A program made the position numbers. 64,000 nt of DNA. It comes from Opitutales bacterium (GTDB lineage Bacteria; Verrucomicrobiota; Verrucomicrobiia; Opitutales; UBA953). Below, piece by piece: positions 21,001 to 24,000 of the stretch. The stretch is taken from NCBI GenBank assembly GCA_040398005.1, contig JBBAUX010000010.1:1-64000 (forward strand), written 5' to 3'. Position 1 is the stretch's first letter, and each line of letters starts with the position of its first letter.

Positions 21001-24000
21001 AGAACTTTAGCGAAGAGAGCAGTCTTAGGTTTAGCTAATTCAAAACGCTCGATGACGGCGAGGCCACCATCGGCAGCGAGATCGAAGAGTGCACGTTGGA
21101 GTGCAATTTTCTTGGCTTGAACGGTAATCGTCTTGGACCAATCGCGAGGGCGAGGACCGAAAACAATACCACCTTTGTAAAGTTGAGGAGCGCGCTTGTC
21201 GCCGTGACGAGATCCGCCCGAACCTTTTTGGGGCAGCATCTTCACACCAGAACCAGCGACTTCGCCGTAGTCCTTAGTCTTGGATGTACCTTGACGTTTG
21301 TTCGCTTGGTAAGAAACGATAACCTGCTTTAAGAGTGCAACGCCTTTGTCGCCCTCGAAGGAAGGAATATCGAATTCTTTCTCAGTGAAAGATGCACCGT
21401 CGGATTTATAAACTTTGAGCTTCATATCAGCAAATAGTGGTTAGAGTTTTACTTGGATTTTTTGGCGGGGCGGACGAGCACAAGCTCGCCATTAGCACCA
21501 GGGAAACTTCCCTTGATAAGGAGGAGATTCTTCTCGGCGAGCACTTGCACGACGCGAAGGTTTTGCACAGTGCGACGCACTGCACCCATGTGACCAGGCA
21601 TACGCTTTCCCTTGAAAACGTGACCAGGGGTTTGACGCATACCGATCGAACCAATTCGGCGGTGCATCATGTGTCCGTGCGAATCAGGCTGACCCGACAT
21701 GTCGTGGCGCTTCATGACGCCTTGGAAACCACGGCCCTTAACGGTGCCGATAACGTCGACCATTTGGCCCGCGGTAAATTTTTCGACAGTGAAGACATCA
21801 CCGACTTTAACTTCCGTAGCAGCCGTGAGGCGAATTTCCTGTAAATGATTGTGGGCGGAGACGCCGGCCTTTTTCAAGTGGCCGATTTCGCCCGCAGAGA
21901 GACGACTCTCTTTGTTGGCACCGAAACCGATTTGCACGGCATGGTAGCCATCAGTTTCGACGGTCTTGACCTGGGTGACAGGACAAGGACCAGCTTGGAC
22001 GACCGTAACAGGGACGAGGTTATTCTCCGCGTCATAGACCTGGGTCATTCCGATTTTTTTACCGAGTAGTTGGTGTTTCATTTTCTAAGAGGCAGGTGAC
22101 TTCGTGAGAAGTCGTTGGGTCAGTGATGACCTGCTTTAGGCTTTGGATGTCCTTACGGAATCTTTGGTCCTGTTGGCCTGCGTTTGAGGGTTGAGGTGAA
22201 GGTTAAGGGTTAAGCGATGATGTTGATATTCACGCCGGATGGCATGTTGAGCTTGCGCAACTCATCAACAGTTTGGGCATTGGGTTCGATGATTTCGATG
22301 AGACGCTTGTGCGTACGAATTTCGAATTGATCCATGGATTTTTTATCAACGTGCGGTGAGCGATTCACGGTCAGACGCTCAATCGAGGTAGGTAAAGGGA
22401 TCGGACCCGAAACACGGGCACCGGTACGCTTAGCAGTGTCGACGATCTCGGTAGCGGATTGATCCACCATGCGGTAATCGAAACCTTTAAGTTTGATACG
22501 AATTTTCATTATGCTGGCCATCGATAAGAATTTTTTAGGGGTTGGTAAATTAGGTTCGAGCAGGAGCGCGAGAAGAAGTCTCGACGACTTGCTTTAAAAT
22601 AGCGGCAGGAACTTGTGCAAAATTGCTTGGTTCCATGGTGTAAGAGGCGCGACCTTTAGAAAGGGAACGTACATCAGTGGCGTAACCAAACATTTCAGCA
22701 AGAGGAACGAGAGCGTTAATATTGCAAAGACCGTTCTTCGTTTCCATGCCTTGGATTTGGCCGCGACGACGATTTAAGTCACCCATGATATCGCCTTGAT
22801 ATTCTTCAGGAGTGACGACTTCGACCTTCATGATTGGCTCAAGTAAAATAGGCTTTGCATCTTTCATCGCTTCCTTGAACGCGAAGATACCAGCCATCTT
22901 GAAGGCCATTTCGTTCGAGTCGACTTCGTGGAAAGATCCAAAAATAATACGGGCTTTGAAATCGATTACTGGATAGCCAGCAACCGTTCCATTATTCGCA
23001 GCTTCGTTGATACCTTCGATGGTTGGCTTGATGTATTCTTTTGGAATTACACCACCAACGATTTCGTTAACAACTTCCTGACCCTTGCCCACGTTAGGCT
23101 CGAGTGTGATTTCGGCGTGACCGTATTGACCACGACCACCGGACTGACGAATAAATTTACCGACGCCTTCCGAGCTAAGCGTAATTGTTTCGCGATAAGA
23201 AATCTGTGGCTTGCCTGATTTCGCTTCGACTTTGAATTCGCGCTTCAAGCGATCGACGATGATTTCTAAGTGCAACTCGCCCATTCCGGAGATGAGGGTT
23301 TGGCCGGTTTCCGGATTAGAGGAAACTTTGAAAGTTGGATCTTCTTTAGCTAAGCGCTGTAAACCAATCGAGAGACGCTCTTGGTCGCCCTTTGAGTTTG
23401 GTTCGATTGACATCGAGATAACTGGATCTGCGAAAGTAGGTGGCTCGAGAACTAAATCGTCTTCGAGGGTGAGTGTATCACCAGTGATTACATCTTTTGG
23501 TCCGATAATCGCACAAATGTCGCCCGAGTAAGCGACGTCGATTTCTTCGCGATCCATCGCACGTAATAACACAATGCGCGAGATACGCTCATTGGAACGA
23601 GTGCGAGGATTATAAAGATTATCACCCTTCTTCAATTGTCCGCGGTAAACACGGAAGAAAACTAATTGGCCCACAAAGGGGTCAGCCCAAAGTTTGAAAC
23701 AGAGACCGGTAACTTTCTGACCATCGTCAGCATTAATTTTTATTTCGGAATCACCGTCGTCGGTAAAGGCACGTTGGCCGCCCATGTCGATAGGGGAAGG
23801 CAAGAAGTCGACAACGCAGTCGAGCAACATTTGGACGCCTTTATTTTTGAAAGCAGATCCAGGAATGACGCCGATGAAATTCATCGAGAGAGTTGCCTTA
23901 CGAATGCTGAAACGGACTTCTTCAATGCTGATTTCTTGTCCTTCTAAATATTTACCAGCTAAAACGTCATCAAAATCAGCGAGAGCTTCGAGTAAGCTAT

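What a model noticed while it worked through the whole genome (the two positions that open the first line are those of the whole stretch)
22085..22139. New ribosomal leader between rpsJ and rplC
A conserved RNA element sits 2-6 nt before the rplC start inside the S10 operon: CUAA-N-GCAGG ... CCUGC-CNC-UUAG, two short helices around a 1x3 internal loop with a variable insert of 5-95 nt. It is a candidate autoregulatory r-leader (L4 or L3) for rplC-rplD-rplW-rplB in Opitutales.
Evidence so far: Motif found in 23 of 29 order loci from 28 families, ending 2-6 nt before the ATG in 22; compensatory pairs GCAGG/CCUGC, GUAGG/CCUAC, GCAGA/UCUGC and CUAA/UUAG, CUCA/UGAG, UUAA/UUAA. The strict pattern occurs once in the whole genome, at this place. 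No Rfam match at E<=1.
(Added by a program. Inside this text positions count along the whole contig: contig position 1 is position 1 of the stretch shown here. "Call 12" and the like, gene names such as g00115 and contig names such as C1 are that model's own, and its searches are not shown. The text may have been shortened before it was handed on; [...] marks where a part breaks off. The agent that wrote the report below was given it as the finding of a first reader that could run no searches.)

Follow-up and report, generated by a model that had tools for sequence, protein, structure and literature searches.

The report
rRNA-mimicking leader before L3 gene
A small folded RNA just ahead of the ribosomal protein L3 gene, shared across this bacterial order and matching no catalogued RNA family, copies a loop of the cell's own ribosomal RNA, so spare L3 protein probably binds it to turn down its own operon, a feedback role not found for L3 in the lists checked.

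Summary
The element is real. A covarying stem (4 bp, 1x3 internal loop, 6 bp) ends 2-6 nt before the rplC start in 126 of the 127 order loci that carry it (149 read). It is single-copy, stays with rplC when rpsJ moves away, shrinks to the bare loop in reduced genomes, and has no Rfam match.

New here: the core, UGC-CUC-U / A-A-GCA, is 12 of 12 identical to the 3x1 loop at the base of helix 96 in this genome's own 23S rRNA, the top hit of a scan defined from the leaders alone (about 4% by chance). Leaders and 75 rRNAs fix and vary the same positions. A second class of the phylum has the same loop before rplC in the opposite strand order (38 of 38 model hits).

H96 is uL3 territory (recalled), so the likeliest reading is uL3 autogenous translational repression in a lineage without Shine-Dalgarno sites, not uL4. 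Binding and repression are untested, and uL14 is the main rival. No L3 leader was found in the lists and searches made.

The parts
22210..22521 (-). rpsJ (uS10), upstream gene; not required next to the element
   Evidence: detached or over 600 nt away in 19 of 135 loci
22177..22186 (-). distal copy of the 5' arm (NNAA-N-GCAGG), mostly genus-level; can pair with the same 3' strand as the proximal arm
   Evidence: 79 of 88 family loci; distal pairing favoured by a median 4.05 kcal/mol in 38 of 38 distinct genus spacers; coordinates
22146..22162 (-). genus-level hairpin between the two arms, role unknown
22136..22139 (-). P1 5' strand CUAA; its last A corresponds to 23S A2725 (recalled E. coli numbering)
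22135..22135 (-). single unpaired base of the 1x3 loop (A, C or U, never G); corresponds to 23S position 2726
   Evidence: A 44, C 52, U 36, G 0 of 132 leaders; A 60, U 15 of 75 rRNAs
22129..22134 (-). P2 5' strand GCAGGU; corresponds to the 3' strand of the H96 lower stem
22114..22128 (-). 5' bulge ending in AAC; in this genus it can form an alternative hairpin with the top of P2 (22118-22131)
   Evidence: AA(C/U)GG with closing CC in 76 of 127 leaders, 0.5 expected; alternative hairpin in 67 of 89 family loci
22098..22113 (-). P3 hairpin stacked on P2 (6 bp here, usually opens with GG/CC); placed like the base of H97; absent from minimal copies
22092..22097 (-). P2 3' strand ACCUGC; corresponds to the 5' strand of the H96 lower stem
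22089..22091 (-). 3-nt side of the loop, C-N-C/A (CUC here); corresponds to 23S 2681-2683
22085..22088 (-). P1 3' strand UUAG, lying where the 30S subunit must load
   Evidence: mean P1 pairing probability 0.41
21449..22081 (-). rplC (uL3), first downstream gene and proposed ligand; no Shine-Dalgarno site

Best explanation
The element is an autogenous ribosomal leader that imitates the 3x1 internal loop at the base of 23S rRNA helix 96, circularly permuted, often with the AA linker and a stub placed like the base of helix 97. When uL3 exceeds free 23S rRNA it binds this loop on its own mRNA and locks the weak AU-rich P1 helix, which ends 2-6 nt before the AUG. In a lineage without Shine-Dalgarno sites, 30S loading on rplC is then blocked, and coupled downstream genes fall with it. 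Shown: structure, position, conservation, sequence and secondary-structure identity with H96, lack of SD. Recalled: uL3 contacts this loop. Inferred: binding, repression at translation, spread to downstream genes.
For: Covariation with U-G and G-U wobbles on the mRNA strand. The element stays with rplC where rpsJ is detached (19 of 135), and a sigma70-like site lies just upstream in 22 of 135 against 3.8 expected. A nine-feature scan defined from leaders ranks the H96 loop first of 1231 candidate loops in the genome's own rRNA, 12 of 12 core bases identical. Rfam's 23S consensus draws the same 6 bp, 3x1 loop, 3 bp and AA linker. In 75 rRNAs and 132 leaders the same positions are fixed (C2680, C2681, U2684, A2725, G2727) and the same vary (2682, 2726, the R-Y pair). 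A second class has the loop in rRNA strand order before rplC (38 of 38 model hits beside rplC). No SD in 127 of 127. L3 is a primary 23S binder (PMC1919495, introduction read) and binds the sarcin/ricin domain (PMC3597689, passage).
Against: No binding or expression data. A complementarity match of this quality arises in 85 of 2000 shuffled rRNAs, and H96 was the fourth look-alike considered. Leader and H96 do not covary genome by genome (9.11 against 8.94 identical bases, 254 of 2000 shuffles as high). The AAC-GG extension matches exactly in only 7 of 75 rRNAs. Pair 2678-2729 is fixed in leaders but free in rRNA. In the second class the U2684-A2725 pair is often replaced (U in 11 of 29). A cryo-EM paper reports that more uL3 strengthens density for domain VI 'except H96' (PMC9687910, passage). 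uL14 and bL19 also touch this loop (recalled). The unbound window start is easier to open than 89% of 340 crude control starts. Four families lack the element.
Confidence: 0.68

Rival explanations
1. Same H96 mimic and same repression, but the ligand is uL14 (rplN, same gene run), bL19, or a uL3-uL14 pair.
For: uL14 and bL19 contact the H96 loop (recalled). rplN is in the uninterrupted run downstream. E. coli repressors are often not the first gene product (PMC7247131, parts 1-2 read). The 'except H96' remark in PMC9687910.
Against: The element sits at rplC in two classes and two topologies. uL3 binds naked 23S rRNA (PMC1919495), whereas uL14 and bL19 are found only in larger particles (PMC9687910, passage). 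No rplS was noticed among the ORFs listed for this run.
Confidence: 0.11
2. A structured start-site element that is not a repressor site: it aids SD-less initiation, recruits ribosomes or assembly intermediates, or protects or marks the mRNA for processing.
For: No SD in the order. Fixed 2-6 nt spacing. Low opening energy in this genome. A genus-level alternative fold frees P1.
Against: One copy per genome at one gene. Families without it keep SD-less rplC starts (0 of 15 with SD). The second class has a strong SD 4-29 nt downstream and still keeps the loop. It does not explain the match to H96.
Confidence: 0.11
3. An r-leader bound by uL4 or uL2, with the H96 likeness a coincidence.
For: uL4 is the proven S10 regulator in E. 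coli (PMC3616713, PMC10931766, passages). The best single-strand 23S match lies at own position 475, near uL4 contacts (contacts recalled). H66, the uL2 site, shares UGC and A-C-GUA strands.
Against: At position 475 the true partner strand would pair the first loop C, yet the opposing base is never G in 132 leaders. H66 needs the bulged 1817-1820 core (PMC1919495, results read), which the leader's covarying register excludes; it ranked 63rd. L4 did not regulate the B. subtilis leader in a surrogate host (PMC7247131 supplement 1).
Confidence: 0.07
4. A DNA-level site or a transcription terminator or attenuator.
For: Inverted-repeat character; promoters often lie nearby.
Against: Arm spacing runs from 5 to 95 nt. 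Wobble pairs hold only on the mRNA strand. No U tract and no terminator-like site.
Confidence: 0.03

Closest known systems
E. coli uS8 operator at rplE (spc operon)
   Same: Works like it: a copy of an rRNA internal loop at the start of an internal cistron, blocking translation of that gene and, by coupling, those after it (PMC10931766, section passage).
   Different: Different rRNA site (23S H96, not 16S h21), different protein, operon and lineage; no sequence relation.
E. coli uL4 S10-operon leader
   Same: Autogenous control of the same gene cluster.
   Different: That leader lies before rpsJ, has five hairpins and a terminator, and is limited to Gammaproteobacteria (PMC3616713, passages). 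This one is a 30-120 nt stem before rplC with no terminator.
L4-Archaeoglobi candidate leader (Eckert and Weinberg 2020)
   Same: Lies before the L3 gene; ligand assigned only by precedent.
   Different: Archaeal; long closing stem and three-way junction, with no 3x1 loop of this type seen in the rows read (supplement 4, part 123); no Rfam hit here.
Firmicutes S10 leader / S10-Clostridia
   Same: Orphan leader of the S10 cluster with unknown ligand.
   Different: Before rpsJ and of different architecture in the rows read (supplement 4, part 133).
23S rRNA helix 96 base (RF02541)
   Same: 12 of 12 core bases in this genome; same loop geometry and same fixed and variable positions.
   Different: Strand order is permuted in this order; the upper helix has one more A-U pair; H94 and H95 are left out.

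Membership tests
ribosomal leaders (class) | conserved secondary structure supported by covariation | tested here: met
   88 copies; 11 copies of the second form
ribosomal leaders (class) | consistently directly upstream of r-protein genes | tested here: met
   127 of 149 order loci; 120 of 120 scan hits; 38 of 38 second-form hits
ribosomal leaders (class) | transcribed as part of the regulated mRNA, downstream of the start site | tested here: inconclusive
   RNA-library contigs of close relatives bridge rpsJ, spacer and rplC in 3 of 4 runs but show no strand or start; promoter-like sites lie upstream of the element in 22 of 135
ribosomal leaders (class) | resemblance to the ligand's rRNA site (common, not required) | tested here: met
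   H96 loop; the protein at that site is recalled, not tested
ribosomal leaders (class) | binds an r-protein encoded downstream | not testable with these tools
   no RNA-protein assay or model available
ribosomal leaders (class) | binding lowers expression | not testable with these tools
   needs a reporter or toeprint
E. coli-type uL4 S10 leader | lies before rpsJ | tested here: not met
   lies before rplC
E. coli-type uL4 S10 leader | multi-hairpin leader with U-rich terminator | tested here: not met
L4-Archaeoglobi | upstream of the L3 gene | tested here: met
L4-Archaeoglobi | its three-way-junction consensus | tested here: not met
   compared by eye; Rfam
Firmicutes S10 / S10-Clostridia leader | position before rpsJ and its consensus | tested here: not met

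The most novel reading that the evidence does not exclude
uL3 is an autogenous translational repressor in bacteria. It recognises a transplanted copy of the 23S H96 loop that stands before rplC in two strand orders in two classes of one phylum, by independent origin or by permutation. The same 12-nt module may mark uL3 control of the S10 cluster in other phyla where uL4 control is absent.
Probability: 0.55. Interest if true: 0.82.

Novelty: new variant of a known kind. Interest (0 to 1): 0.75.

Why it matters
How the S10 cluster is regulated outside Gammaproteobacteria is open: the uL4 leader is narrowly distributed (PMC3616713) and the Firmicutes leader has no known ligand (PMC7247131, Table S1). 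No L3 leader appears among the 35 earlier and 20 new leaders there, and the 2023 review has no uL3 section (PMC10931766, outline). This element names a ligand and a binding site, comes in a 29-nt natural minimal form (L237, L239) ready for binding tests, and gives a searchable module for other phyla. It would also define a minimal uL3 recognition site and show feedback control working without a Shine-Dalgarno sequence.

Tried and rejected
Other rRNA look-alikes. 16S h19/h25 junction: needs the AAC-GG part, which minimal copies lack. 23S H53 and 16S h45: noted by eye only, and neither reached the top of the loop scan. 23S H100/H101: 8 of 11 positions here, but H100 varies across the order, does not follow the leader, and 9 of 1046 predicted junctions score 7 or more. 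H66 and the position-475 strand: see rivals.

mis-anchored the rRNA strand in many rows and was redone. The 3'-strand columns were mis-anchored and are not used. The control mean is an artefact; only fractions are used.

Model R1 found nothing in 5 genomes of families f13, f18 and f29 or in G019. Outside the order it gave 2 weak hits in 124 genomes, neither beside rplC. Apparent modules before rpsJ in other classes are fusA coding sequence. No relocation of the module before rpsJ was seen in families that lack it.

RNA runs were contigs only, with no DNA run laid, so start site, strand and level could not be read. No promoter-like or terminator-like site in window 21900-22700. Stelzl 2003 and Uchiumi 1999 are not held, so residue-level uL3 and uL4 contacts remain recalled. 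Earlier-finding look-ups returned nothing.

Full report
Observation. The S10 genes run on the - strand. Between rpsJ (22521-22210) and rplC (22081-21449) lie 128 nt whose last 58 read CUAA-A-GCAGG, 33 nt, CCUGC-CUC-UUAG, AAA, then AUG. The 55-nt element folds at -14.3 kcal/mol, better than all 200 shuffles. Rfam has nothing there.

Distribution. A search of 201 genomes of the order found rplC in 197 and listed 150 places. I fetched those 150; the 48 weakest matches were not listed, so this sample under-represents the smallest genomes. One locus was truncated. A fixed score found the element in 127 of 149, in 30 of 35 families, and a degenerate copy is visible in a 31st. Targeted checks added four small-genome families (4 of 5 genomes) and one of three f20 genomes. 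It is missing in f18 (0 of 8), f29 (0 of 5), f9 and f13, where the spacer is only 4-47 nt. A quick single-gene tree places these inside the carrier clade, which suggests presence in the order's ancestor and several losses; support is low (102 rows, careful search not finished). Model R1 hits once in G000, in 25 of 26 other order genomes (the miss also lacks an rplC match), and credibly in none of 124 other genomes of the phylum. A strict pattern scanned over all species returned 120 rows before its cap. All 120 lie directly before rplC. The 80 titles shown name Opitutales-level taxa or Verrucomicrobia, apart from one unassigned bacterium.

Anatomy. P1 (4 bp), a 1x3 loop, P2 (6 bp), a 5' bulge ending in AA(C/U), and P3 stacked on P2. 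On 88 copies, 95.6% of cells pair against 87.5% in shuffles and 25-50% in slid controls; related sequences inflate such tests. U-G and G-U wobbles on the mRNA strand point to RNA. The loop is therefore the core. The element follows rplC: rpsJ is detached or far away in 19 of 135 loci, and a loose sigma70-like pattern lies just upstream in 22 of 135 against 3.8 expected. This window has no such site. RNA-library contigs of close relatives bridge rpsJ, spacer and rplC in 3 of 4 runs laid, without showing strand or start.

A second form. Of 40 rplC loci outside the order, none had this element, but six had another motif. They belong to the class of G214 or to families grouping with it in the tree (unnamed; probably Lentisphaeria, my inference). 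It is the same loop with the strands in the opposite order: (U/C)AC-[CAA, CGC, CAC]-N first, and A-[A, C, U]-GU(A/G) second. Its helices covary (11 copies). Model R2 finds it once in 38 of 151 genomes (f48 24 of 24, f55 13 of 14, f75 1), each time just before the rplC match. Here a Shine-Dalgarno site follows 4-29 nt later, and the upper closing pair is less fixed. One loop, two topologies and one gene suggest a protein-binding module.

What it copies. Three look-alikes picked by eye failed or stayed weak. I then scored every 3-4 by 1-3 loop that complementarity allows in the genome's own rRNA on nine features taken from the leaders. The best of 1231 candidates, 9 of 9, pairs 23S positions 2597-2609 with 2644-2654 (G000:C1 28737-28749 and 28784-28794), right after the sarcin-ricin hairpin. 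Rfam's consensus draws this as a real 6 bp helix, 3x1 loop and 3 bp helix, followed by an AA linker and the next helix. This is the base of H96 (name and E. coli numbers recalled). The window's core, UGC-CUC-U with A-A-GCA, is identical to it at 12 of 12 bases. Across 75 rRNAs and 132 leaders, C2680, C2681, U2684, A2725 and G2727 are fixed or nearly so in both. Positions 2682 and 2726 vary in both, 2726 is never G in either, and the 2679-2728 pair is G-C or A-U at 54:21 and 106:26. Shuffled rRNA gives such a match in 85 of 2000 trials, before asking that it be a true helix. Against: no genome-by-genome covariation (254 of 2000 shuffles as high), and pair 2678-2729 is fixed only in leaders. In this genus the rRNA strand continues AAC-GGA into the base of H97, as most leaders do, which would explain the permutation (H96 joined to an H97 stub, H94 and H95 dropped). 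Across the order only the AA and the helix are shared (exact in 7 of 75).

Ligand. From memory, uL3 contacts this loop and protects A2726 and A2733 (Uchiumi 1999, PMID 9873002; I saw only its title in two reference lists, and a passage in PMC3597689 quoting tight L3 binding to the sarcin/ricin domain). L3 binds naked 23S rRNA (PMC1919495). PMC9687910 links uL3 to domain VI stability but excepts H96. uL14 and bL19 also touch the loop (recalled), and rplN is in the same run, which continues to rplQ here. uL3 is the best guess because it is a primary binder and the gene the element never leaves.

Mechanism. The order does not use Shine-Dalgarno pairing at rplC (0 of 127 with the element, 0 of 15 without, 20 of 40 outside the order), and G000 shows no enrichment genome-wide (10.9% of 700 long ORFs against 10.7% of control sites). 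P2 is stable (median pairing 0.90) and P1 marginal (mean 0.41), ending 2-6 nt before the AUG. A protein bound at the loop would lock P1 over the loading site. Unbound, the window's start is easy to open (2.1 kcal/mol, lower than 89% of 340 crude controls), which fits a ligand-dependent block but does not show one. In this genus a second 5' arm at 22186-22177 (79 of 88 family loci) is predicted to win the 3' strand by a median 4 kcal/mol in all 38 distinct spacers tested, while the proximal arm folds into its own hairpin and P1 opens. This may be an explicit 'on' state or a second site.

Novelty. No L3 leader is in Table 1 or Table S1 of PMC7247131 (parts 1-2 of the main text, supplement 1 parts 1 and 3, supplement 4 parts 123 and 133 read; 'Verrucomicrobia' and 'Opitut' have no hits in the main text searched or the four supplements, one of which was cut when stored). 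PMC10931766 has no uL3 section (outline and passages). Six searches aimed at prior reports (listings only) found no such element or uL3 autoregulation in bacteria. Subscription journals and bioRxiv supplements were out of reach. Verdict: a real, apparently undescribed r-leader with an rRNA mimic that points to a new ligand; function untested.

Noticed in passing
L281, L295, L298, L302, L509-L568 (class of G214 and neighbouring families): Second form of the loop before rplC, with a conserved CCGA(U) apical loop that equals own 23S positions 477-481; a separate RNA family worth its own entry.
   Followed up: partly
window 19000-19341 (-): 113-aa ORF inserted between rpsS and rplV, with a hydrophobic N-terminus and no Pfam match; tblastn finds it at the same place in many order loci.
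   Followed up: partly
window 22177-22186; L099-L105, L109: In deeper branches of family f1 the distal arm has its own CCUGC partner, so the spacer looks like a tandem duplication of the element with later decay.
   Followed up: partly
G000 genome-wide: No Shine-Dalgarno enrichment although the 16S anti-SD is intact; G is depleted before starts.
   Followed up: partly
window 22550-25631 (-): The str cluster reads rpsL-rpsG-fusA-rpsJ with no tuf gene between fusA and rpsJ; most order loci look the same.
   Followed up: no
L003, L167, L449 and others in f2, f3, f14, f34: Genes inserted between rpsJ and rplC (up to 8 kb in L449) with a TTGAC-type promoter in front of the element.
   Followed up: partly
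L239 (G007): The minimal element ends about 28 nt before the assigned rplC start, further than elsewhere; an AUG directly after it is out of the assigned frame.
   Followed up: no
window 13334-13350 (-): No room for rpmD (uL30) between rpsE and rplO in this gene run.
   Followed up: no
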